64,000 nt of DNA from the human T2T-CHM13v2.0 reference genome, Homo sapiens (GCF_009914755.1 NC_060927.1), one strand, 5' to 3'. Positions 681 to 15,094 are shown, counted from the first letter of the stretch. Notes: a model not told the origin generated them from the letters alone. Program-made: numbers and translations.

Positions 681-920
681 TGTGGTACTGTGTTTGCAAA
701 GACAGCTCCCACAAATTCCTCCCTTCCTGGCCACCATGCCTCTCCAAGGTGGGACGTGTCCCTTCCTCCCACCCATAGCCTGGGCTACTTCCCCTCCCCT
801 TGGACACATGACTTTATTTGGCCAATAGAAGGTGGGGGAAGTGATGGCTGTGCCTCAAGACACCTTGGGGCTTCTGCTTCACTCTTGAAGCACAGCCTCA
901 GATGCCATGCACAGAAGCTG
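681..920 (+). mobile_element. MLT1 (MaLR, MLT1G/H-like) LTR, 5' portion
   Basis: Starts TGTGG and contains MLT1-type motifs cttcccctccccttgg, tgactttatttggccaatagaaggtgggggaagtgatg, gcttctgcttcactcttgaa and gccatg, then runs directly into the tandem array. Confidence 0.75.
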
Positions 921-3900
921 TGATTGGGGCACATGGAGGAGACAAAGGGGACCTTGGTGTGAGAGGCTGGTCTACCACTGGGGTGGGCGCACGACAGGGA
1001 ACTGAGAGGACCACTGAGTGAGGAGGCTGGCCTACCATTGGGGTGGGGGCACATGGAGGAAACTGAGGAGACACCCAAGTTATGGGGCTGGTCTACCATG
1101 AAAGTGGGAGAAGGTGGAGGAAACCGAGAGAACCCCCATATGGGGAGGCTGCTCTACCTTTAGGGGGACACGTGGAGGAAACAGAACCCGCATGTAAGGA
1201 GGCTGGTCTACCATAGGGGCGGGGGCAGGTGGAAGGGACTGAGGGGACTCTCGTATTAGAGGGCTGGTCTACTGTGGGGGTTATGTGGAGGGAACTGAGG
1301 GGACCCCCATGTGAGGAGACTGGTCTACCATTAAGGTGGGGTCACATAGAGGGAACCGAGGGAATGTCCATGAAAACAGGCTGGTCTACCACTGGGGTGG
1401 GGGCACTTGGAGAGAACTGAGGAAACCCCTGTGTGAGAAGGCTAGTCTACCATTGGGGTAGGGGGACTTGGAGTTGAACTGAAAGGACCCCTGTATGAGG
1501 AGGCTGGCCTACCATCATAGTGGGAGCACATGGAGAAAACTGAGGAAGCCCCCATGTTAGGAGGTTGGTCTACCATTGGGGCAAAAATCACGTGGCGATG
1601 ATTGAGAAGACCCATGCGTGAGAAGGCTAGTCAACAATTGGGGTAGGGGGACTTAGAGTAGAACTGAAAGAATTCTTGGGTGAGGAGGCTGGTCTACCAT
1701 TGGCATGAAACGTGGGATGAAAAGGGCAATGTGGAGTTAACTGAGGATAACCATGTGAGGAGGCTGGTCTACCACTGACATGGGGGCACGTGGAGAGGGA
1801 CGGAGGGGATTCTTGTGTGAGGAGGCTGGTCTACCATTGGGGAGGTCACATGGAGGGAGCTGAGGGGACCTCTGGATGAGGCAAGTAGTCTACCATTGTA
1901 GTGGGGCCACGTGGAGGAAACTGAGGGTATACCCATGTGAGAAGGCTGGTCTACCATTAGGGTGGGGGGCCATGTGGAAATAATTGAGAAGGCCCGAATG
2001 TGAGTAGGTCATTCTACCATTGGGGTGAGAGCACATGGAGGGAACTGAGGGGATCCCAGTGTGAGGAGGCTGGTCTACCGTTGAGGGGTCCCCATGGACG
2101 GGAACTGAGGGGAAACCCATGTGAAGAGGCTTGTCTACCATTCGGGGGGCACATGGAGGGAAATGAGGGGACCCCCATATGAGGAGGCTGGTCTATCATT
2201 GAGAAGGCCACATAGAGGGGAACTGAGGGAACCCATATGTGAGAAAGCTGGTCTACTGTGGGGGGGATGTGGAGGAAATTGAGGGGGCCCACATGTAAGG
2301 TAGTTTGTCTGTCATTGGGGTGGGAGCACTTTAAGGGTACTGAAAGGACCCCCATGTGAGGAGGCTCATCTATCGTTGGTTGGGTACATATGGAGAGAAC
2401 TGAAGGGACACCCAAGTGAGGAGGCTGGTCTACCATAAAGGTGAGGGTACGTGGAGGAAACTGAGAGAGCCCTCATGTAAGGAGGCTCATCTACCATTGG
2501 GCTAAGGGCAATATGGAGATAACTGAGAAGGCCAGTGTGTGAGGAGGCTGGTCTACCCTTGGGATGAGGAGGGTTTTCTACCACTGAGGGGCCATGAGAA
2601 GGGAACTGAAAGAATCCCCTTGTGAGAAGGCTGGTTTACCATTAAGAAGGGAATGTGGACAGAAGTGAGGGGACCTCATGTGAGGAGGCTGGTCCACCAT
2701 TAGGGAGGGCCATGTGGAGGGAACTGATGGGACCCCAGTGTGAGGAGGCTGCCCTACCATTGAGGAGGCCGTGTCTAGATAACTGAGTAAACTACTGTGT
2801 GAGAAGGCTGATCTACCACTGGGGGGCCAAGTTGAGGCAACTGAGGGGGCCCCCATGTTAGGATGCTGGTCTACAACTCCGGTAGAGGCATGTGGAGAAA
2901 ACTGAGTGAAAACTTGTATGAGGAGGCTGTTCTACCATTGAAGTAAAGGCACATGGAGGAAACTTAGGGAGAAATAAAGGCACATGTGAGAAAACTGGCC
3001 TACCTTTTGGGGGGTCACCGAAAGCAAACTTAGGGGACCCTCATATGAGGAGGCGGGTCTACCACTGGAAGGGTCTCCATAGAGGGAACTGAAGAAACCA
3101 CCGTGTGATGCAGCTGGTCCACAATTTGCTGGGGTGGGGGGCGGGGTGGGGAGGCACACATGGAAAGAACTGAGGAAATGGCCATGTAAGAAGGCTTGCA
3201 TACCATTGAGGTGGGGGCATGTGGATGGAACTGAGAAGACCCCTGTGTGAGGTGGTTGGCCTTTCATTGGGGTGGCAGCACATGGAGGAAAACAGAGGAA
3301 ACCACTGGTGGGGAGGCAGATCTACTATTGGGAACTGTGGAGACCTTCATGTGAGAAGGCTGGTGTACCATTGGTGGCGCCATGTGGAAAGAAATAAGGG
3401 GATTCCCGTGTGAGGAGACTGGTCTATCATTGGGGGCCAAGTGAAAAGAACTGAGGGGACCCCCACTTGAGGAGGCTGGTCTACAATTAGGGTGGGGGGA
3501 CAAGGAAAAAATTGAGGGATCTGCAATTAGGGTGGGGGGACAAGGAAAAAATTGAGGGACCTTCATGTGAGGAACTGGTCTACTATTATGGGGGCATGTG
3601 GAGAGAACTGAGTGAACCTCTGTGTAAGAAGGGTGGTCTACTATTGAGGGCGCCACATAGAGGGAACTGAGGAAACACCCATGTGAGAAGGAATGTATAC
3701 CCTTTGGGTGGAGGCACATATAGAGAACTGAGGGGACCCCTGTATGAGGAGGCTGGTCTACCATTGGGGTTGGGGCATGTGGAGGGAACTGAAGGGATGC
3801 CTGTGTGAGGAGGCTTGTCTGTCATTGAGGAGGCCATGTGAAGGGAACTGAGGAGACCCCGTGTGAGGAGGCTGATCTACCACTGGGATGGGGGCACATA

Positions 3901-6900
3901 GAGGGAACTGAGGGGTCCCTCGTGTGAGGAGGCTGGTTTACCATTGAGTAAGTTATGTGGTGAGAACAAGGGGACCCCCATGTGAGGAGGCTGTTCTAAC
4001 ATTAAAAAGGTAGGGAACTGAGAGGATCCAGTGTGAGGAGACTGGTCTACCATTGGGTGGGCACTTGAGAGGAGGCTGAGTCAAAACAACTGTGAGGAGG
4101 CTGGTCTACCACCAGGGTGGGAGCACATGGAGGGAACTGAGGAAACTCTTGTGAGAGAAAGCTGCTTTATCATTGGGGCAGAGGCACATAAAGAGAAACT
4201 GGGGAATCCCTGTGTGAAGAGGCTGGTCTTTCATTGAGGGGGCATGTGGAGAGAACTGAGAAAATCCCTATGTAAGGAGGCTGGTCTACCATTGTAGATG
4301 GGGCACATGGACAGAAGCACTGTGTGAGAAGGCTGGTTTACCATTGGAGGGGGGCATGTGGAGGAAACTGAGAGGAACACCATGTAAAAAGGCTGGCCTA
4401 CCACTGTGGTGGGGGCGCGTAGAGGGAACTAAGGAGTCCCCCATGTAAGGTGGCTGGTTTACCATTGAGCAGGCCACGTGGAGGGAAATGAGTGGTCCCT
4501 TATGTGAGGAGGCTGTTCTATGACTGGGGTGGGGCCACCTGGAGAGGAGATGAGTGGACTTTTGTGTAAGAAGGCTGGTGTACATTGAGGGGGGGTCACC
4601 TAGAGGGAACTGAGGAAACACCCCTGCAAGGGAGGAGGCTGGTCTACCATTGGAGGGGACTGTGTGGAGGAAACTGAGTGGGCCCCCTTGTGAGACATCT
4701 GGTCTACCATTATGATAGGGGCATGTGGAGTAAACTGAGGGGTCCCCCATGTGAGGAGGCTGGTCTACTCTTGGGGTGGGGGCCTTGGAATGGAAATGAA
4801 AAAAACCCCATGTAAGGAGGCTGGTCTACCATGGGGAGTACACGTGGAGGGAACTGAGAGGACCCCTAAGTGAGGAAGCTGGTGTATCATTGAGGGTCCA
4901 CATGGAGGGTACTGAAGAGACCCCCATGTGAGGAGGCTCTTTTATTATCGGGATGTGGGCACATGGAGAAAACTGAGAAAAGGCTGGTCTACCACTGAGG
5001 GGGCCCTGTAGAGGGTACTAAGGGGCCCTTCATGTGATGAGGCTGGTCTACTATTGAGGGGGCCAAATGGAAAGAACTGAGGGGACCATCGTGGGAGGAG
5101 ACTGGTATACCATTGAGGTGTAAGCATGTGGAGGAAATTGAAAGAACCCCCAGTTGAGGAGGCTGTCCTACCTTTAGGGAGTCTCATGGAGGGTACTGTT
5201 GGAACCCCCATGTTGGGAGGCTGGCCAACCATTGGGTCTGGGGCACTTGGAGGGAACTGAGGGGACCCTGGTTTGAGGAGGCACCTGTGTGATGGGGGCT
5301 TTGGGAGGAAGCTGAGGTACCCCTGTGTGAGTAGGCTTGTCTACCACTGGGGGAATCACGTGGAGAGAACTGAGGTGACCCTTTTGTGAGGAAGCTGGTT
5401 TACTGTTGGGGTGAAAGCACATGGAGAAAACTGAGGGTACCCCCTTGTGAGGAGGCTGGTCTACCATTTAAAAGGCCACATGGAGAGAACTGAGGGGACA
5501 TCTGTGTATGGAGGCTGGTCTACCAGTGAGGGGGCAATGTGGAAGGAATTGAGGGGACGCATAAGTGAGGTGGCTGGTCTACCATTAAGTTGGGGACATG
5601 TGAAGGAAAGAGAGGGGATCCCCCCCGTGAGGAGGCTGTTCTATCATTGGGGGACCATGTGGAGGGAACTGAGGGGACCCCCCCCGTAAGAAGGCTTATC
5701 TACCACTGGGGTAGCAGCACATTGAAGTAAATGAGGGGACCCCCGTGTGACAAGTCTGGTCTACCTTTGGGGTGGGGGCACATAGAGGGGAACTAAGGGG
5801 ATCCCCGTTTGAGAAGACTGGTCTACCATCAGGGTGGGGGCACTTGGAGGGAACTGAGGAAACCCCTATATGAGGGGATTGGTAGATCACTGGGGTTAGG
5901 AAATGTGTAGGGAAATTGAAATGACCCCTGTAAGGAAGGCACATGAAAAATACTGAGGGGATCCCCGTGTGAGGCAGCTGGTCTACTATTATGGTGAGGG
6001 CACATAGAGGAACCTGAGGGGACCCTCGTGTGGAGAGGCTGGTCTATCATTGTGGTAGAGCCCACATGGAGATAATTGAGAAAACCTGTGTGTGAGGAGG
6101 CTGGTCTACCATTGGGTGGGTACATGTGGGGAACAGAGGGGAAGCCCATGTGAGGAGGCTTGTTTACCATTGGGGTAGGGTAACATGGAGGTGAGTGATG
6201 GGACTCCTGTGTGAGAAGGCTGGTCTACCTTTGGGGTGGGGGCACGTTGAAGGAAACTAAGGGGACCCCTTTGTGAGAAGACCAGTCTACCATTGGGGGG
6301 CACATGGAGAAAGCTGAGGGGATGCCCACGTGAGAAGGCTTGTCTATGATTGGCTTCGGGGCACATGGCCATAACTGAGGAAACCCCAATGTGAGGCGGG
6401 TGGTTTACCATTGGGGTTAGGAAACACGGAGGGCAACTAAAAGAACTCCAGTGTGAGAAGGCTGGCCTGCCATTGGGGGGTACATGGAGGGAATTGAAAG
6501 GATTTCCATTGAGGAGGCTGGTCTACCATTGGGTTGGGGGCACGTGAAGGGGAACTGAATGGATTCCCATGTAAGGAGGTTGGTCTACCATTGTGTGTGG
6601 TGGGGGCACATGGAGAAAACTCAGAGGACATCCATGTAAGGAGGCTGGTCTATTATTGGGGTAGGGACAAGTAGAGGTAACTGAGGGGAATCCCTGTGTA
6701 GGGAGACTGGTCTACCATTGAGGGAGCCCTGTGGAGAAAACTGAGGAAATTCCATGTGAGGAGCATTGTCTACCATATAGGTGAGGGCACGTGGAGGAAA
6801 CTGAGAGAATTCCCGAGTGAGGAGGCTAGTTTACCATTGAGGTAATCACATTTAGGACACCAAGGAAACCCTCATGTGAGGAGGCTAGTATACCACTGGG

Positions 6901-9900
6901 GTGGGGGAATGGGGAAGTAACCGAGGAGACCCCCATGTGAGGAGGCATGTTTACCATTGGGGTGGAGGTACATGAGGGAAATTGAGGGGACCCCCGTGTT
7001 AGGAGGCTTGTCTGGCATTAAGAGAACCACGTGGAGAAAACTGAGGGAACCCACATGGGAGGAAACTGATTTACCATTGGGATGGAGGCACGTGGGGGGA
7101 ACTGGGGGAACCCCCCTGTGAGAAGGCTGGTCTACCATTGAGGAGGTTACGTGGAGGGAACTGAGGGGGCCTACATGTGAGGCGGCTGGTCTACCACTGG
7201 CAGGTAGCACATGGAGGGAACTGAGGGGGTCCTCGTGTGAGAAGGCTGGTCTACCATTGAAAAGGCTACATGGAGGGAACTGAAGGGGCTCCTGTGTGAG
7301 GAGACAGGTCTACCATTGAGGGAATCATGTGGAGGGAAGTGAGGAGACCCTCCTGTGAGGTAGCTGGTCTACCATTGGGTTGGGGGCACTTGAAGGGAAC
7401 TGAGGGGGCCCTTGTGCTAGGAGGCTGATCTATCATTAGGGGGGGTCATATGGAACAAACTGACTGGACACCAAAGTGAGGAGAGTGGTCTACCATAGAG
7501 GTTAAAGCATAAAAAGGAAAGAGAGCCTCTGTGTGAGGAGGCTAGTCTACCATTGATGGGGGCACATTGAGGGAACTGAGGGGATCCCTATCTGAGGAGG
7601 TGGGTCTACCATTGGTGTGGGGAGATGCGGAGGGAACAGAGAGGATTCCTTTGTGAGGAGGCTTGTCTACAACTGAAGTTGGAGCACATGAAGAGAACTG
7701 AGGGAACCCCTCATGTGAGGCAGATGATCTACCACTGAGGAGGGGGATGAGGAGGAAACTGACAAGACCCCCATGTAAGGCCAGTCTGTTATTGGGGTGG
7801 AGGGCACCTGGAGGAAATTGAGGGGAGCCCCATGTGAGGAGGCTTTTCTATCATTGTGATGGGGAAACGTGGAGAGGAACTGGGTGGATCTTCGTGTGAA
7901 GAGGCTGGTCTACCATTGGAGGGGGCCACGTGGACATAACTGAGGAAATCCCCATGTAAGGAGGCTGGTCTACCTTTGGGGAGCCATGTGGAGGGAAGTA
8001 AGTGCACCCCCTTTTGAGGCATCTGGTCTACCACTGTGGTGGGGGCACATGGGGAAAACTGAGAGGATCCCTATGTAAGGAGCCTGGTTTACCTTTGTGG
8101 TGGGGGCACGTGGAGGTAACCGAGGGAACCCCCCTGTGAGGAGGCTGGTCTATCATTGGAGGGTGGTTATGTGGAGGGAATGGAGGAAACCTTCTTGTGA
8201 GGAGGACTGTTTATCATTGGAGATCACATGGAGGAAACTCAGAGAACCCCCTTGTGAGGAGTCTAGTCTACCTTTGAGGTAATCATGCTTAGGGCACTGA
8301 GAAAACCCCCATGTGAGGTGGCTAGTATACAATTGGGGTGAGAGAATGTGGAGGGAACTGAGGGGATCCCCCTGTGTAAAGCGTCTGATCTACCATTGAG
8401 GGTGCATGTGAGGGGAACTGAGAAGATGCCCAAGTGAGGAGGCTGGTCTACCATTGAGGGGGATATGTGGAGGGAACTAAGGGGACCCCTGTGTGGGGAG
8501 GCTGGTCTACCATTGGGATGGGGGCATGTGGTGATAACTGAGGGGACCCCCATGTGAGGAGGCTTGTATACCTTTGAGTGGGCCACATGGATGGAACTGA
8601 GGGGACCTACATGTGAGAGGGCTGGTTTACCATGGTGTTGGGGGCATGTGGAGGGAACTGAGGGGATGCCAATGAAAGAAGTCTGGCCTACCATTAGGAA
8701 TGGGGAATGTGGATAGAAGTGAGGAAACCCTTGTGTGAGGAGACTGATTTACCATTGGGGTGGGGGGACTTGAAGTGGAACTAAAAAGACCCCTGTGTGA
8801 GGAGGTGGGTCTACCACTGGGGGTCATGTGTAGGAAACTGAGAGGATCCCTGAGTGAGGAGCCTGATCTATCATTGAGGGGACCACGTGGAGGGAACTGA
8901 GGAAACCCTGGGTGAGGAAGCTGGTCTACCATTGAGGGGGCCACAAGGATACTGAGGGGACCCCCGTGTGAGGAGGCTGGTCTACCATTGAAAAGGCCAT
9001 GTGAAGGAAACTGAGAGAATGCTTGTGTGATGAGGCTGGTCCACCACTGATGGGGCCACGTGGAGGGAACTGAGGGGTCCCTCTTGTGAGGTGGCTGGTC
9101 TACCATTGGGTTGGGAGTGAGTGAAGGAAACTGAGAGGACCCTTGTGCTAGGAGGCTGTTCTATTATTGTGGATGGAGGTGATGTGGAGGGAACTGAGTG
9201 GACACCCAACTGAAGAGACTGGTTTACCATAGGGGTGGGGGCATGTGGAGAAAACAGAGAACCCCCATATAAGGGGGCTGCTTTTTCACTGAGCAGGGCA
9301 CATTGAGGGAACTGAAGAAATTCCTGTGTGAGGAGGCTTGTCTACCACTCAGTGGGCTATGTAGAGGAAACTGAGAGGACCCCTATGTGAGGTGGCCAGT
9401 CTACCATTGTGGTGGGGGCACATGGAGGAAACTGGGGGTATCCCCTGTGTGAGGTGTCTGGTCTACCATTTGGGTTGGGGCCTTGTAGAGATAAGTGAGA
9501 AAACCTGCGTGTGAAGGGACTGAGGGGAACTGAAAAGAGTGGTCTACCACGGGGTTGGGGGCACCTCAAAGGAAGTAAGGGAACCTTTGTGTGGGGAGGC
9601 TAGTCTACCTTTGAGGGGGGCTACATGAAAGGAAACAGAGGAAACCCATGTGAGGAAAGTGGCCTACCTTTGCAGCGGCCACAAGGAGGGAAGTGTGGGG
9701 ACCACTATGTAAGGAGACTGGTCTATTATTGAGGGGGCCACATGGAGGGGAATAGAGGGGATCAGCATGTGAGGAGGCTGGTCTACCATGGAAGAGGATG
9801 TGGAGGGAACTGAGGGGACCTGCATTTGAGGAGGTTGGTCTACCATTAAGGGTCCACATGAACAGGAACTAAGACATCTGTGTGAGGTGGCTGGTCTACT

Positions 9901-12900
9901 ATTGTTGGGGGCATGTGGAAGAAATGGAGTGGACTTCCCCCTTGTGAGATATCTGGTCCACCATTGTGGTGGAGGCACATGGAGGAAACTGAGGGACTCC
10001 TGTGTGAGGATGCTGGTCTACCATTGGGCTGGGGGCATGTGAAGAGAAACTGAGGGAATCCCCATGTGAGGAGGCTTGTCTACCATTAAAAGGGCCACAT
10101 GGAGGAAAGTGAGGGCACCCTTGTCTTAGAAGGCTGGTCTACCTTTGAGTGAACCACATGAAGTGAACTGAGGGGAACCCCTTGAGAGGTGGCTGGTCTA
10201 TTATTCTTGGGAGCACGTGGAGGGAACTGAGGGGACCCCATGAAAGAAGGCTGGTCTACTACTGCGATTGGGGGGTATGTGGAGAGAACTGAGGAAACTC
10301 GGTAGTGAAGCTGCTTGTCTACCATTGGGTGAGCACATGGAGGGAACTGAGGGGACCCCCATGTGAAGAGTCTGATCTACCACTGTGATGGGAGCATGTG
10401 GAGGGAACTGAGGGGACCCCCATGTGAAGAGTCTGATCTACCACTGTGATGGGAGCATGTGGAGGGAACTGAGGGGACCCCCATGTGAACAGTCTGATCT
10501 ACCACTGTGATGGGAGCATGTGGAGGGAACTGAGGGGACCTTTATGTGGGGAGGCTTGTCTATCACTGTGGTAGGGGCTTGTGAAGGGAAACGACCCCTT
10601 CCCCCACCCCTTGTGAGCACGTTGGTCTACCATTGCGGGGGCTTGAGAAGAAAACTGAAGGAACTCCTGCGTGAGGTAGTTCATATACCTTTGAACAGGC
10701 CACATGGAGGGAATTGAGTGCACCCACGTGTTAAGTGTCTGGTCTACCACTGGGGGAAGCATATTGAGGGAACTAAGGAGATGCCCATGAAAGGAGGCCG
10801 GTGTACCACTGGGGTTGGGTCACATGGAGGGAAATGAGGAAAATCCCATGTGAGGAGGCTTGTCTACCATTGAGGTGGGGGGACTGAGAAGACCCCCATT
10901 TGAGGAGGCTGATTTTTATTCAGTGAGCCACGTGAAGAAAACTGATGGGACCCCCATGTGAAGAGGCTGATTAACCATTGGGGTGGAGCCTCCACTAGGG
11001 TGGAGGCATGTGGAGAAAACTGCAGGAAACTTCAAGTGAGAAGGCTGATCTAACATTTGAGGGAACCCCCGTTTGAGGAGGCTGTTCTACCACTGAGGTG
11101 GGGGCACCTGGAGAGGTAATGGGTGGATCTTTGTGTGAGGAGCCTGGTCTACCACTGGGGTGGGGATATAAGAAGACAAACTGAGGGAATCTCTGTGTGA
11201 GGAGGCTGGTCTTTCATTGAGGGGGCACGTGGAGGAAACTGAGAAGATCACCATGTGAGGAGGCTGGTCTTCCATGGGAATGGGGGCAAGTGGAGAAAAC
11301 TGAACAGGCTCTCATGTGAAGTGTTTGGCCTACCATTATGGTGGGGTCATGTGGAGGAAACTGAGGGGACCCCAATGTGAGGAGGCTGGTCTAACATTGA
11401 GAGGGCACATGGAGAAAACTGAGAGGGTTGCCATATAAGCAGGCTGGTGGTACCACATGGAGAAAACTGAGGTGACTTTGTTGTGAGGAGGCTGGTATAC
11501 CTTTGGGGGGGCCACGTGGAGGAAATTGAATGGACACCCCCTTTGAGGTGTCTGGTCTACCATTGTGGTGGGGGCACGTGGTGGAAACTGAGGGGACCCC
11601 ATCTGAGAAGGCTGTCTACCATTTGGGGGGCTAAGTGGAGGAAACTGAGGGGACACCCATGTGAGGAGGCTGGTCTACCATCGAGGTGGGAGAATGTGGA
11701 GGAAACTGAGAGAACCCCCTTGTGAGGAGGCTTGACTACCTTTGGGGTGGGGGATCATGAAGGGAACTGAGAGGACCCCCATATTAGGAGGCTGGCCTAC
11801 CATTGAGGGAACCATGTGGAGAAAACTGATGGGAACCACACATGAGGAGGCTGATCTACCACTGGTGTGGGGGCACATGGAGGGAACTGAGGGAACTCCC
11901 ATCTGAGAAGGTTGGTCTATTATTGGGTGGGGTTATGTGGAGGGAACTGAGGGAACATTCACGTGAGGAGGCTGGTCTACCATTGGGAGGCCACCTAGGG
12001 AGAACTGAGGGGATCCCCATATGAGGTGGCTGGTCTACCAATGGGGGAATCACGTCTAGGGCACTGAGGAAATCCTTGTGTGAGGAGCCTAGTATACCAG
12101 TGGAATGGGAGTTCTTGGAGGAAATTGAGGGCACCCCTTTGTGGAGGTGCTTGTCTACCATTGGGGTGGGGGCACTTGGAGGGAACTGGGGAGACACCCA
12201 TGTGAGAAGGCTGGTGTACCATAGCGGTGGGGACACGTGGAGGAAACTGAGGAAACCCCTGTGTGAGGAGGCTGATCTACCATTGGCGGACCACCTGGAG
12301 GAAACTGAGAGGACCCCCATGTGAGGCAACTGGTCTTCCATGGTGGGGCACATGACAGAAACTGAGAAGACATTCATCTGAGGAGGCTGGTCTACAATTG
12401 AGGGGGACCTGTGGAGGGTAGTCTGTGTGAGGAGGCTGGTCTGCCCTTGAGGTGGCCGAGTAGAAAGAAGAGAGGAAACCCTCGTGTGAGGAGGCTAGTA
12501 TACCATTGGTGTGGGGGCATATGGAGGGAACTGAGGGAACCTCCTCATGTGAGGAGGGTGGTTTACCATTGGGAAGGCTGTATTGATAGAACCCCCATCT
12601 GGGGAGGCTCATCTAACACTGGGGTGGGGGCACATGGAAGGAACTGAGTGGACCCTTATGTGAGAAGGCTGGTCTACCTTTGTGGTGGGGGCTTTTGGAG
12701 GAACTGGAGGGGACACCCATGTAAGGACACTTGTCTATTATTGGGGTGGGAGCACGTGAAGGGAACTGAGGGGATGCTTCTGTGAGGAGAGTGGTCTTTT
12801 GTTGAGGGGGTCACATGGAGGGAAACCGAGGGAACCCCCGTATGAGGAGGCTGGTCTACCATTGAGGGGGCCACATTAAGAAAACTGAGGGTACCTGATT

Positions 12901-14545
12901 TGAGGGGGCTTGTCTACTATTTGGTTGGGAGGTAACCGAGGGGACTCCTGTGTGATGAGGTTGGTTTACCACTGTGGTGTGGGGCATGTGTAGGGAAGTT
13001 AGGGACCACCATATGGGGAAGCTGGTCTACCACTGAGAGGGCCACATGGAGGAGAACTGAGGGGAAACCCATGTGAGGAGGCTGGTCTACCGTTGCAGGG
13101 GCCACATGGAGGGAAGTCAGGGGACCCCCATTTGAAGAGACCCATCTTTTATTGAGGGGGCCACATGGAGGGAAGTCAGGGGACCGCCATTTGAAGAGAC
13201 CCATCTTTTATTGAGGGGGCCACATGGAGGGGAAGAGAGGGGACCCATGTGTGAGGAGACTGGTCTATCACTGGGGGGGCACATGGAGAAAACCGAGGGG
13301 ACCCCTATATGAGGAGTCTGGTCTACCATTAAGTGTCCACATGGACGGGAACTAATGGGACCCTTGTGTGAGGAGGCTAGTCTACCATTAGTGGTGGCAT
13401 GTAAAGGGAACTTGGACCCCCATGTGAGGCAGCTGGTCTACCATTCATGGGGGGCTGCGGAGGGAACTGTGTGGAGGCTGGTCCACCTTTGAGCGGGCCA
13501 TGTGTAGGAATCTGTGGAGACCCCAATGTGAGGAGGCTAGTCTACCATTGGGGTTGGGGGACAAAAAGGGAACTGAGGGTACCAGTGTGAGGAGGCTGGT
13601 CTGCCATTGATGGGGCTATGTGGAGGGAACTGATGGGCACCCTGTTTGAGGAGGCTGGTCTATCATTTGGGTGGGGAAACATTTAGGGAACTGAGGGGGT
13701 CCCAATCTGAGGAGACTGGTCTACTATTGAGGGGCCCAAGGTGGAGGGAACTGAAGGGACCTCCGTGTGAGAAGGCTTGTCTACTGGTGGAGGCACATGG
13801 AAGAAAGTGAGGGGACCCTTGTGTGAGTAGGCTGGTTTACCATTGAGTGGTCATGTGGAGGCAACTGAGGTGACCCTTGTGTGTGGAGGCTGTTTTTCCA
13901 CTGGGGTGGGCACATGGAGAGAACTGAGGTGGTGGGGGCCAGTGAGTCATCTGGTCTGCCTTTGGGGTGGAGGCTTGGGAAGGAAACTGAAGGGATTCTT
14001 GTGTGAGGAGGCTGGTCTACCATTGATGGGACCACGTGGAGGGAACTGAGTGGGTCCCTATGTGAGAAGGCTGGTCCACCACTGGAGGTGGAGGGGCACG
14101 TGTAGGAATCTGTGGGGACCCTAATGTGAGGAGGCTAGTCTACCACTGGGGTTGGGACACACAAAGGGAACTGAGGGTACTCCTGTGTGAAGAGGCTGGT
14201 CTACCATTGACAGGGTTACATGGAGGGAACTGAGGGGACCCCTGCCTTGTGAGGAGGCTCATCTGCCACTGGGAGGCCACGTGGAGGGAACTGAGGAGAC
14301 CTCTACATTGGGGGGCCATGTGGTGGGAACTGAGGGGACCACCATGTGAGGGGGCTGGTCTACCATTGGGGGGACACTTGGAGGGAACTGTGGGGACTCC
14401 CATGTGAGGGGGCTGGTCTACTATTGGGTTTGGGGACCATGTGAGGAGGTTGGTTTCCCATTGTGGGGGTCACGTGGAAGGAACTGAGGGGGCCCCTGTG
14501 TGAGGATCCTGGTTGGCCTTTGGGGTGGGGGCCATGGGAGAGGAA
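921..14545 (+). repeat. ~13.6 kb G-rich tandem array (satellite/macrosatellite), ~60-61 bp monomer, ~225 copies
   Basis: Continuous recurrence of TGTGAGGAGGCTGGTCTACCATTG and TGGAGGGAACTGAGG about every 60 bp. An exact 61 bp period is visible at 10337-10540. Copy number is estimated as length divided by period. Confidence 0.97.
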
Positions 14546-14746
14546 CTGTCACTCCAGAAGACAGCTAACACCCATTGTGTCTTGAAATTTTCAGCCCAGC
14601 TGAATGGAGCTTCATGGGTGAGTCCAGGCAAGACCAGCCAGAAACCTACCTGTATTTGCTGACTAACAGAATAGAAAGTAATGGTAAATCAGTGTTTTAG
14701 GTTGCCCCATTTGGGGGCGGTTTGTTGCTCAATAGGTCACTGCTCA
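14530..14746 (+). mobile_element. MLT1 (MaLR, MLT1G/H-like) LTR, 3' portion
   Basis: ccagaagacagctaacaccca...ttcagcccagctgaatggagcttcatgggtgagtccaggcaagaccagccagaaacc...ttgctgactaacagaat...gtgttttag...ttgggggcggtttgttgctcaataggtcactgctca matches the MLT1 LTR 3' half and its terminus (-CA). Confidence 0.8.
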
Positions 14747-15094
14747 TGGTCCATGTTCCTAGTTGGAAAACTAAGAGCTCCTGAGGCAGGCCCGGCTTTG
14801 CAAGAGAACCCAGGTTCCCACAGCAGGCTGGCCTATCAGTGACATCCCTTTCAAAGGGAGGACCAGGGATCCGGTGACTGGGATCTGATTATTCATGAAC
14901 TCATTCATTTGGATCTATTTTCTGCCCAACTCAGGGCTGCAGGCTGAGAATCCAGAGATGGTCACAGCCTCTATCCTTGTATGTACTCCCCAATTCATAA
15001 GCGAGACAGACAGGAAAACCACCAATGACAGTGTGAGGTGGGCTGTGAGGGTGATAGTGAGGATGATTACTATCACGATAGTTAATAGAGTGTA

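What the first reader, a model, noticed from the sequence alone, without database searches (positions are those of the whole stretch)
681..14746. A 13.6 kb satellite that appears to have been born inside a single MLT1 solo LTR
Seen: the array is flanked by the 5' part (681-920) and 3' part (~14530-14746) of an MLT1-type LTR in the same orientation. The LTR reads into the first monomer (gccatgcacagaagctg...gggcacatggagg) and out of the last (gccatgggagaggaactgtcactccagaagacagctaacacc). From recalled family knowledge, the MLT1G/H middle segment reads roughly ccatgt..gaag..ggtcta.c...ccacgtggagg.gaac.gagg...cccc(agccgacagccagcacc), which is the monomer. The two flanks plus one monomer total ~515 bp, a normal MLT1 LTR length. 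Inference: one ~60 bp internal LTR segment was amplified ~225-fold in place, expanding a 0.5 kb LTR to 14 kb. It does not resemble the human satellites I can recall (alpha, beta, HSAT, SATR, MSR1, CER, gamma), but I cannot confirm it is unnamed. Tandem repeats expanding within MaLR LTRs have precedent in mouse (Ms6-hm, Hm-2).
Basis: partly seen in the sequence, partly recalled or inferred. Interest (0 to 1): 0.9.

Follow-up and report, generated by a model that had tools for sequence, protein, structure and literature searches.

The report
Fossil tandem array inside one LTR
A 13.6 kb run of about 230 decayed 60-base repeats on human chromosome 3 grew long ago from a short repeat already present inside one ancient retrotransposon LTR, and it now looks like inert, neutrally decaying DNA.

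Summary
Window 919-14548 holds about 230 head-to-tail units of 58-61 bp, all on the + strand. The array lies between the two complementary halves of one LTR, at 689-918 and 14549-14746.

- A second copy of the same LTR lies 694 kb away (locus L001). It carries 2.4 of the same units at the same place, with identical entry and exit phases.
- More distant relatives of the LTR carry about one unit.
- The array therefore grew in place from a native internal LTR repeat that was already duplicated into two variant units, L and S. Both variants fill the array.
- Two independent genome-wide probes find the unit only in this array and in L001, so this is not a multi-locus satellite.

The array is old and frozen.
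- Units are about 20% diverged from their consensus.
- Pairwise identity is the same at every distance (0.655-0.660).
- Both CpGs decayed independently in each unit.
- There is no higher-order structure and no site-specific constraint.
- Unit divergence is about equal to the per-lineage divergence of the LTR itself. This points to one short burst soon after insertion, followed by neutral decay.

The MLT1 subfamily label could not be tested because no Dfam library was available. A human precedent exists: the MLT1D-flanked minisatellite at 16q24.1. This is a new member of a known kind, of modest interest.

The parts
683..688 (+). Candidate upstream target-site duplication (TGGTAC).
   Evidence: Read from the sequence. 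It matches 5 of 6 bases with TGGTCC at 14747-14752. The LTR start could be 689 or 691, so this is suggestive only.
689..918 (+). 5' unique part of the LTR. It starts with TG.
   Evidence: Colinear with L001 1283-1502: p-distance 0.25 over 220 aligned columns. Homology with L001 and with the relatives L008, L018 and L006 stops at this start. A genome search with 681-960 finds only itself and L001.
919..966 (+). Truncated first unit, which forms the entry junction.
   Evidence: The same internally deleted first unit occurs in L001 at 1503-1545. The 21-base junction signature is exact only at these two loci. Six other matches with 2 mismatches show no LTR homology.
967..14506 (+). Body of the array: about 225 units of 58-61 bp, of two intermixed types L and S.
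   Evidence: There are 231 profile hits, 182 of them full length. By type, 78 are L, 76 are S and 28 are unassigned. The type markers are linked, Fisher p 2e-23. Identity to consensus is 0.775, and pairwise identity is 0.655-0.660 at all distances.
14507..14548 (+). Last, partial L-type unit, which forms the exit junction.
   Evidence: It leaves the unit at the same phase as the last partial L unit of L001, at 1608-1648.
14549..14746 (+). 3' unique part of the LTR. It ends with CA.
   Evidence: Colinear with L001 1649-1835, but poorly conserved: p-distance 0.42, with 63 gap columns. It is the best hit in the window to the 3'-terminus profile of 15 dispersed copies, at 14645-14726, E 0.0015. 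The terminus aligns with the family end.
14747..14752 (+). Candidate downstream target-site duplication (TGGTCC).
   Evidence: Read from the sequence. See the upstream partner at 683-688.

Best explanation
One solo LTR of an old MaLR-type family (MLT1-like by recall) inserted at window 689..14746.

Its source element already carried a short internal tandem repeat: a truncated unit, an S-type unit and a partial L-type unit, about 2.4 units of 60 bp in all. That pre-existing duplication let out-of-register pairing occur, by replication slippage or unequal sister-chromatid or homologue exchange.

In one short episode soon after insertion, the S and L units were multiplied about 100-fold and shuffled into a 13.6 kb array of about 227 units. 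The outermost truncated units and both LTR halves were left untouched.

Turnover then stopped. Each unit has since decayed independently and neutrally, with methylated CpGs lost and a symmetric GC-to-AT bias, for a time about equal to the age of the LTR itself. From recalled human-lineage rates that is on the order of 100 million years.

The array has no detectable function. It is intronic filler in LINC00620.

Shown: the anatomy, the homology of the unit to the LTR middle, the single-locus distribution, the star-like decay and the lack of constraint. Inferred: the exchange mechanism, the shortness of the burst and the absolute age.
For: Anatomy
- The two flanks are complementary, same-strand halves of one LTR.
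- The entry and exit junctions are in the same unit phase as in L001.
- Sequence outside the LTR is not homologous between the two loci. Only two non-colinear hits of 19-24 bp were found. The two loci are therefore independent insertions, not a segmental duplication.

Origin of the unit
- L001 has 2.4 units (period 58, 2.3 copies), typed S then L.
- L008 and L007 align one unit with high posterior. L004 has a 68-column deletion in the unit region, and L019 a 61-column deletion.
- The array holds 78 L-type and 76 S-type units with linked markers, Fisher p 2e-23. Their order is near random: 58 of 103 adjacencies alternate, against 0.50 expected, p 0.20. This argues against rolling-circle copying of one fixed monomer or dimer.

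Single locus
- A 21-mer with up to 1 mismatch gives 42 matches: 41 in the array, 1 in L001, 0 elsewhere, control 0.
- A 23-mer with up to 2 mismatches gives 29 matches: 27 in the array, 2 in L001, 0 elsewhere, control 1.

Burst, then freeze
- Mean pairwise identity is 0.652-0.662 at lags 1-12 and 0.655-0.660 in six distance bins.
- The best match lies within 200 bp for 2.2% of units, against 2.1% at random.
- With gaps treated as missing, the variance of pairwise identity is 0.00345, against 0.00330 +/- 0.00019 for column shuffles. 44 of 200 shuffles reach the observed value.
- The top 1% most similar pairs are not closer together: median distance 4042 against 3937 bp.

Age
- Non-CpG K2P distance to the type consensus is 0.185 (L) and 0.168 (S).
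- The window and L001 5' LTR parts differ by K2P 0.31, or 0.155 per lineage.
- CG is retained in 29 of 182 and 15 of 182 units at the two CpG sites. TG and CA products are about equal.
- CpG observed/expected is 0.13 in the array, against 0.13-0.19 in three control segments.

Neutrality
- G>A is 0.152 and C>T is 0.163, so there is no strand asymmetry.
- The apparent conservation of one block disappears when the unit is re-phased.
Against: - Units are somewhat more diverged than the per-lineage value of the 5' LTR flank. Raw unit divergence is 0.167-0.184, or 0.149-0.161 without CpG, against about 0.125 for the flank. Either the array mutates faster, or the burst drew on templates that were already heterogeneous. 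A faster rate would make the array younger than stated.
- No interspersed repeat has inserted into 13.6 kb (largest unmatched gap 45 bp). That is what a younger array would also show. The scarcity of L1-endonuclease-type sites offers another explanation: 3 in the array against 25-46 in equal-length control segments.
- When gap-gap columns are counted as matches, the variance of pairwise identity exceeds every shuffle (0 of 300). The star-like result therefore depends on treating gaps as missing.
- A few later local duplications exist: a 40-bp unit at 97% at 3480-3559, and units 10372 and 10494 at 90%.
- The target-site duplication is only 5 of 6 bases and depends on which LTR start is chosen.
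- The family name was not tested against any labelled consensus.
- No other species could be examined.
Confidence: 0.75

Rival explanations
1. The expansion is much younger than the LTR, for example primate-specific. The high divergence between units would then reflect an elevated mutation rate in a G-rich tandem array, not great age.
For: Units are about 1.3-1.4 times more diverged than the per-lineage divergence of the 5' LTR flank. No Alu, L1 or other insertion interrupts the 13.6 kb. G and C sites change about twice as often as A and T sites: 0.23 against 0.12-0.13.
Against: The spectrum is the ordinary symmetric GC-to-AT decay. CpG depletion equals the genomic background. Both CpG sites are near saturation. 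A young array would normally still show more similarity between neighbouring units, and none is seen. The lack of insertions can be explained by the lack of target sites.
Confidence: 0.12
2. The array belongs to a named or unnamed multi-locus satellite family that landed inside, or next to, LTR fragments. It is not an in-place product of the LTR.
For: None found.
Against: Two independent probes find the unit only in this array and in the L001 LTR. Both junctions are in the same phase as in L001. Relatives of the LTR carry one unit at that position. Three unit strings give 0 papers in the full-text search.
Confidence: 0.02
3. The flanks come from two different LTR copies, either the two LTRs of one element or two separate insertions. 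The array would then have formed between them.
For: The 3' flank is much less similar to L001 than the 5' flank: p-distance 0.42 against 0.25.
Against: The flanks do not overlap. Together with the units they reconstitute one colinear LTR of normal length: 230 + 198 bp plus units, against 553 bp for the L001 LTR. No internal retrotransposon sequence lies between them, since the profile covers 13,073 of 13,630 bases. There is a candidate matching target-site duplication.
Confidence: 0.03
4. The array is kept because it functions. It could act as a block of about 230 E-box and CCAAT-like modules serving as an enhancer or insulator, or as a structural element of the LINC00620 intron.
For: The ancestral unit contains CACGTG and, on the other strand, CCAAT. 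The array holds 29 CACGTG against 0-2 in equal-length controls, and 63 CCAAT/ATTGG against 13-28. The array has survived undeleted for a long time.
Against: There is no position-specific constraint once ascertainment is removed. The E-box CpG has decayed in 153 of 182 units. Per-unit mutation load is homogeneous: sd 0.049 against a binomial 0.053. The RefSeq functional-element rows supplied with the finding list nothing in the array.
Confidence: 0.05

Closest known systems
The 16q24.1 large minisatellite upstream of FOXF1, flanked by MLT1D ERVL-MaLR sequence (PMC4411736; passages read)
   Same: It is a human, single-locus, multi-kilobase array of short units sitting between MaLR LTR sequence. 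In the genome held here it is again one locus: 104 matches of the 33-base unit, all on one stretch of contig 16.
   Different: - The unit is 33 bp and unrelated to the 60-bp unit here.
- Its immediate flanks show no similarity to the profiles of this LTR.
- It is homogeneous and active: 90-92% matches, and the paper reports it as polymorphic and evolutionarily unstable.
- The chromosome 3 array shows 63-67% matches and no sign of turnover.
Mouse minisatellites Ms6-hm and Hm-2, derived from a MaLR LTR (seen only as a row in the table of the review PMC9659126; the details are recalled)
   Same: They are tandem arrays that arose within a MaLR LTR.
   Different: By recall, they have very short units (pentamer-type) and are hypervariable, with germline instability that continues today. 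The array here has 60-bp units and is frozen.
TE-derived satellites such as SST1 (mentioned in the Hoyt et al. preprint 10.1101/2021.07.12.451456; passages read)
   Same: They are tandem arrays whose unit derives from a transposable element.
   Different: SST1 is multi-locus with long units, and it carries distinct methylation and transcription profiles. The array here is single-locus, has short units and is decayed. That preprint has 0 occurrences of 'MLT1' or 'MaLR' in its main text. Its supplements were not available.
Variable-number direct repeats inside retroviral and LTR-retrotransposon LTRs (general knowledge, recalled)
   Same: A short internal LTR segment is duplicated in some copies of a family: one unit in L008 and L007, and 2.4 units in L001.
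   Different: Such repeats normally number 2-4. Here one copy ran to about 227.

Membership tests
MLT1 (ERVL-MaLR) solo LTR | TG...CA termini bounding a unit of a few hundred bp. | tested here: met
   The window LTR starts with TGTG at 689 and ends with CA at 14746. The L001 LTR starts with TGTG at 1283 and ends with ACA near 1835. Unique parts plus 2.4 units come to about 574 bp, against 553 bp in L001.
MLT1 (ERVL-MaLR) solo LTR | The conserved 3'-terminal block shared by many dispersed copies of the superfamily. | tested here: met
   The last ~58 bp of the L001 LTR match 15 dispersed loci at 79-91%. A profile of those 15 ends has its best hit in the window at 14645-14726 on the + strand, E 0.0015, with the next hit at E 2.9. 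The ends align in register. That this block is the MaLR terminus is recalled; no labelled reference was used.
MLT1 (ERVL-MaLR) solo LTR | Contiguous alignment of both flanks and the unit to one named Dfam or Repbase MLT1 subfamily consensus. | not testable with these tools
   No Dfam or Repbase library was available. As a substitute, colinearity was shown with an independent genomic copy, L001, and with more distant copies L004, L008 and L026. The flanks of the 16q24.1 array, which its paper labels MLT1D, do not match these profiles, so this is not MLT1D.
MLT1 (ERVL-MaLR) solo LTR | A short target-site duplication flanking the whole element. | tested here: inconclusive
   TGGTAC at 683-688 against TGGTCC at 14747-14752 agree at 5 of 6 bases. 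This holds only if the LTR starts at 689 and not at 691. L001 shows no recognisable duplication.
MLT1 (ERVL-MaLR) solo LTR | Membership of a dispersed multi-copy family. | tested here: met
   A 20-mer from the 5' part with up to 2 mismatches gives 36 genomic matches against 3 for the reversed control. A second 20-mer gives 15 against 0. L004, L008 and L026 carry the 5' and 3' parts in order. The close subfamily with the duplicated unit was found at only 2 loci.
TE-derived tandem array expanded in place | The flanks are the two complementary parts of one TE copy in one orientation. | tested here: met
TE-derived tandem array expanded in place | The unit is homologous to the TE segment that lies between those two parts in unexpanded copies. 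| tested here: met
   L001 has 2.4 units, 87-88% identical to the array consensus. L008 and L007 each have one unit aligned with high posterior. The unit profile alone is too diverged to detect the single units: no hit at E <= 0.01 in 48 loci, and L026 only at E 0.013.
TE-derived tandem array expanded in place | An unexpanded orthologous locus in an outgroup species. | not testable with these tools
   Only this one human assembly was available for this window (one search states that it has no relatives here).
Satellite DNA family (multi-locus, homogenised) | Arrays at several loci or chromosomes. | tested here: not met
   All 42 and all 29 probe matches lie in this array or in the L001 LTR.
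Satellite DNA family (multi-locus, homogenised) | Concerted evolution, meaning higher-order repeats or greater similarity between neighbouring units. | tested here: not met
   Identity is flat across lags 1-12 and across all distance bins. The variance of pairwise identity equals the column-shuffle null when gaps are treated as missing.
Hypervariable minisatellite (Ms6-hm or 16q24.1 type) | High identity between units, reflecting ongoing turnover. | tested here: not met
   The long Tandem Repeats Finder rows here show 63-67% matches. The 16q24.1 array in the same genome shows 90-92%.
Hypervariable minisatellite (Ms6-hm or 16q24.1 type) | Length polymorphism in the population. | not testable with these tools
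   Only a single haplotype was available.

The most novel reading that the evidence does not exclude
The array is a frozen relic of one brief amplification burst that happened before or around the placental radiation. On this reading it is shared, in decayed form, by most placental mammals.

That would make it one of the oldest intact single-locus tandem arrays in the human genome. It would also be a natural experiment: about 230 copies of one 60-bp sequence, each decaying independently. The burst may have been driven by a transient recombination hotspot that later died.
Probability: 0.3. Interest if true: 0.5.

Novelty: new member of a known kind. Interest (0 to 1): 0.3.

Why it matters
This is a clean, fully bounded example of how a tandem array is born from a transposable element. 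Every stage survives in one genome: one unit in distant LTR relatives, 2.4 units in a sister copy, and about 227 units here.

Amplification stopped early, so the roughly 230 units are near-independent replicates of one sequence. They could be used to read long-term neutral mutation spectra and CpG decay at one locus.

The array also shows that a large tandem array can persist for a very long time without homogenisation, deletion or insertion of other repeats. It changes nothing about known mechanisms, and it has no demonstrated function.

Tried and rejected
- Naming the LTR from a labelled reference. The flanks of the published MLT1D-flanked 16q24.1 array were fetched. They show no similarity to this LTR's profiles next to that array. 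The only hits, at E 0.005-0.016, lie more than 700 bp away on the other strand. This rules out MLT1D but gives no positive name.
- The founding MaLR paper. Two look-ups with identifiers I recalled found nothing. A citing paper gave only age context.
- Higher-order repeats. Tandem Repeats Finder lists periods of 120, 122, 180 and 295. However, lag analysis shows no excess identity at lags 2, 3 or 5, and the L and S types do not alternate significantly. Higher-order structure is rejected.
- A conserved block within the unit. The apparent 90% conservation of the anchor block was an ascertainment artefact of how units were cut. Re-phasing moved the apparent conservation to the new anchor.
- Excess variance of pairwise identity. 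This was traced to gap-gap matches, and it disappears when gaps are treated as missing.
- G-quadruplex potential as a driver. There are only 3 canonical motifs and 21 with loops up to 12 in today's sequence, against 0-1 and 1-3 in controls. The sequence is too decayed to argue from.
- Further members of the duplicated-unit subfamily. A junction-signature search gave six extra places, all without LTR homology.
- Literature. Six full-text searches found no description of this array. The single paper holding both 'LINC00620' and 'tandem repeat' is a review of face prediction (listing only).


Full report
**1. What is in the sequence**

Tandem Repeats Finder reports a continuous set of overlapping rows from 958 to 14540. 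Periods are 57-62 and their multiples. The long rows show only 63-67% matches, for example 5952-9480 (period 61, 58.8 copies, 65%) and 9718-13091 (period 122, 63%).

An 11-base anchor with up to 2 substitutions occurs 186 times on the + strand of the window. Of these, 181 lie between 900 and 14600, with modal spacings of 61, 59, 58, 62 and 60. It occurs only 9 times on the reverse strand.

GC skew is +0.28 to +0.38 throughout 1001-14000 and falls outside the array.

A profile built from 119 seed units finds 231 hits in 919-14548, covering 13,073 of 13,630 bases. Ten gaps exceed 12 bp and the longest is 45 bp. Nothing foreign is therefore inserted in the array. The 4 hits elsewhere in the window have E >= 0.5.

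**2. The flanks are two halves of one LTR**

A whole-genome search with 611 bases of the array returned one other place on the same chromosome, 694 kb upstream and on the same strand (locus L001). Reading it shows a complete LTR of 553 bp (L001 1283-1835) whose middle holds 2.3 copies of a 58-bp unit.

- Window 709-1067 aligns to L001 1301-1648 at 78% over 361 columns, E 1e-75. The alignment runs without a break from the unique 5' LTR part into the units.
- The alignment shows the same internally deleted first unit in both copies.
- The last unit is left at the same phase in both.
- The 3' parts are colinear but poorly conserved: p-distance 0.42, with 63 gap columns.
- Independent support for the 3' flank comes from a profile of the 3' ends of 15 dispersed LTR copies that matched the L001 terminus. 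Its best hit in the whole window lies at 14645-14726 on the + strand, E 0.0015, with the next hit at E 2.9. The termini align in register, ending at 14746.
- Sequence outside the LTR limits is not homologous between the two loci. They are therefore separate insertions, not a segmental duplication.
- Six bases before the LTR (TGGTAC, 683-688) match 5 of the 6 bases after it (TGGTCC, 14747-14752). This is suggestive only, because the LTR could start at 689 or 691.

**3. The unit is the LTR's own middle segment**

The three unit pieces of L001 are 87-88% identical to the array consensus.

More distant relatives were found through shared 20-mers: 36 genomic matches against 3 for the control, and 15 against 0. 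They were also found through the L001 query. They carry the 5' and 3' LTR parts in order.

- L008 has one unit-equivalent in the middle, aligned with high posterior. An Alu sits upstream of it.
- L007 also has one unit-equivalent aligned with high posterior.
- L004 has a 68-column deletion relative to L001 in the unit region.
- L019 has a 61-column deletion there.

The unit profile alone does not detect these single, diverged units at E <= 0.01 in any of 48 loci. L026 reaches only E 0.013.

The series is therefore one unit, then 2.4 units, then about 227 units.

**4. Two ancestral unit types**

Four variable columns are tightly linked (Fisher p 2e-23). They define an L type (78 units) and an S type (76 units), with 28 units unassigned.

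The full unit of L001 is S and its last partial unit is L. The last partial unit of the window is also L-like. The common source therefore already carried a truncated unit, an S unit and a partial L unit.

In the array the two types are intermixed almost at random. 58 of 103 informative adjacencies alternate, against 0.50 expected, p 0.20. This fits repeated out-of-register exchange or slippage. It does not fit rolling-circle copying of one fixed monomer or dimer. That step is inference.

**5. Single locus**

A 21-mer with up to 1 mismatch has 42 genomic matches: 41 in the array, 1 in L001, and 0 for the control.

A 23-mer from the other half of the unit, with up to 2 mismatches, has 29 matches: 27 in the array, 2 in L001, and 1 for the control.

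The entry-junction signature is exact only at the two loci. Six other places with 2 mismatches have no homology to any of five profiles at E <= 0.1.

**6. Burst, then freeze**

- Identity to consensus is 0.775 with gaps counted as mismatches, or 0.80 without them.
- Mean pairwise identity is 0.652-0.662 at lags 1-12 and 0.655-0.660 in six distance bins from under 100 bp to over 6 kb.
- The best-matching partner lies within 200 bp for 2.2% of units, against 2.1% at random.
- When gap-gap columns count as matches, the variance of pairwise identity exceeds all 300 column shuffles.
- When gaps are treated as missing, the variance is 0.00345 against 0.00330 +/- 0.00019, and 44 of 200 shuffles reach it. 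The most similar 1% of pairs are no closer together than the rest.
- Per-unit load is homogeneous: sd 0.049 against a binomial 0.053.
- Exceptions are minor: a 40-bp duplication at 97% at 3480-3559, and two units 122 bp apart at 90% identity.

**7. Age and neutrality**

Substitutions against the consensus are 0.192 per site, K2P 0.226. G>A is 0.152 and C>T is 0.163, so there is no strand bias. A and T sites change at 0.115-0.13.

Two ancestral CpGs have decayed independently in each unit. CG survives in 29 of 182 and 15 of 182 units, with TG and CA products about equal. CpG observed/expected is 0.13, like the surrounding DNA.

The non-CpG K2P distance to the type consensus is 0.185 (L) and 0.168 (S). 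The 5' unique LTR parts of the window and L001 differ by K2P 0.31, or 0.155 per lineage. The burst is therefore about as old as the LTR.

MLT1 families are described as active before the mammalian radiation. Individual copies are syntenic across placentals at 90-98 million years or more (PMC3836709, passages). The conversion to about 100 million years rests on recalled human-lineage rates.

The apparent conservation of one block within the unit was an artefact of how units were cut.

**8. Why nothing has inserted**

The array has 3 TTTTAA/TTAAAA sites, against 25-46 in three equal-length control segments. It has 78 TTTT/AAAA runs, against 355-557 in the controls. Insertions dependent on the L1 endonuclease would therefore be rare. 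This is an inference.

**9. What is known**

A human 8.7 kb minisatellite of 33-bp units flanked by MLT1D is in print, and is reported as polymorphic and unstable (PMC4411736, passages).

In this genome that array is again one locus and shows 90-92% matches. Its flanks do not match this LTR's profiles.

Mouse Ms6-hm and Hm-2 are listed as MaLR-LTR-derived in a review table (PMC9659126).

The T2T repeat preprint has no occurrence of MLT1 or MaLR in its main text. Its supplements were not visible.

No paper holds any of three unit strings. Searches found no description of this array.

Whether RepeatMasker or TRF tracks already annotate it could not be checked. The repeat-mask rows supplied with the finding list no long masked stretch inside it.

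**10. Verdict**

The array is a single-locus, ancient tandem array that is not homogenised and is apparently inert. It is a new member of a known kind, of modest interest.

Noticed in passing
window 919-14548: No interspersed repeat interrupts 13.6 kb of apparently very old sequence; the largest unmatched gap is 45 bp. The array has about 10 times fewer L1-endonuclease-type sites than equal-length neighbouring segments: 3 against 25-46.
   Followed up: partly
window 3480-3559 and 10372-10555: There are two small later duplications inside the otherwise frozen array. One is a 40-bp unit repeated twice at 97%. The other is a pair of units 122 bp apart at 90% identity.
   Followed up: no
G000 contig 16, about 91470265-91477535 (loci L069, L070): In this assembly the published 16q24.1 MLT1D-flanked minisatellite spans about 7.3 kb. 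The paper gives 8,688 bp for the reference. This fits the reported length polymorphism. Its units are 90-92% alike.
   Followed up: partly
L008 about 1040-1360: A distant relative of the LTR carries an Alu-like insertion between its 5' part and its single unit. The Alu identity is by eye and from recall.
   Followed up: no
window 14549-14746 against L001 1649-1835: The 3' part of the two sister LTRs is far more diverged than the 5' part: p-distance 0.42 with 63 gap columns, against 0.25 with 10 gap columns. No reason for the asymmetry was found.
   Followed up: no
window 919-14548: The ancestral unit carries an E-box (CACGTG) and a CCAAT box on the other strand. 29 CACGTG survive in the array, against 0-2 in control segments. 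No sign of constraint was found.
   Followed up: partly
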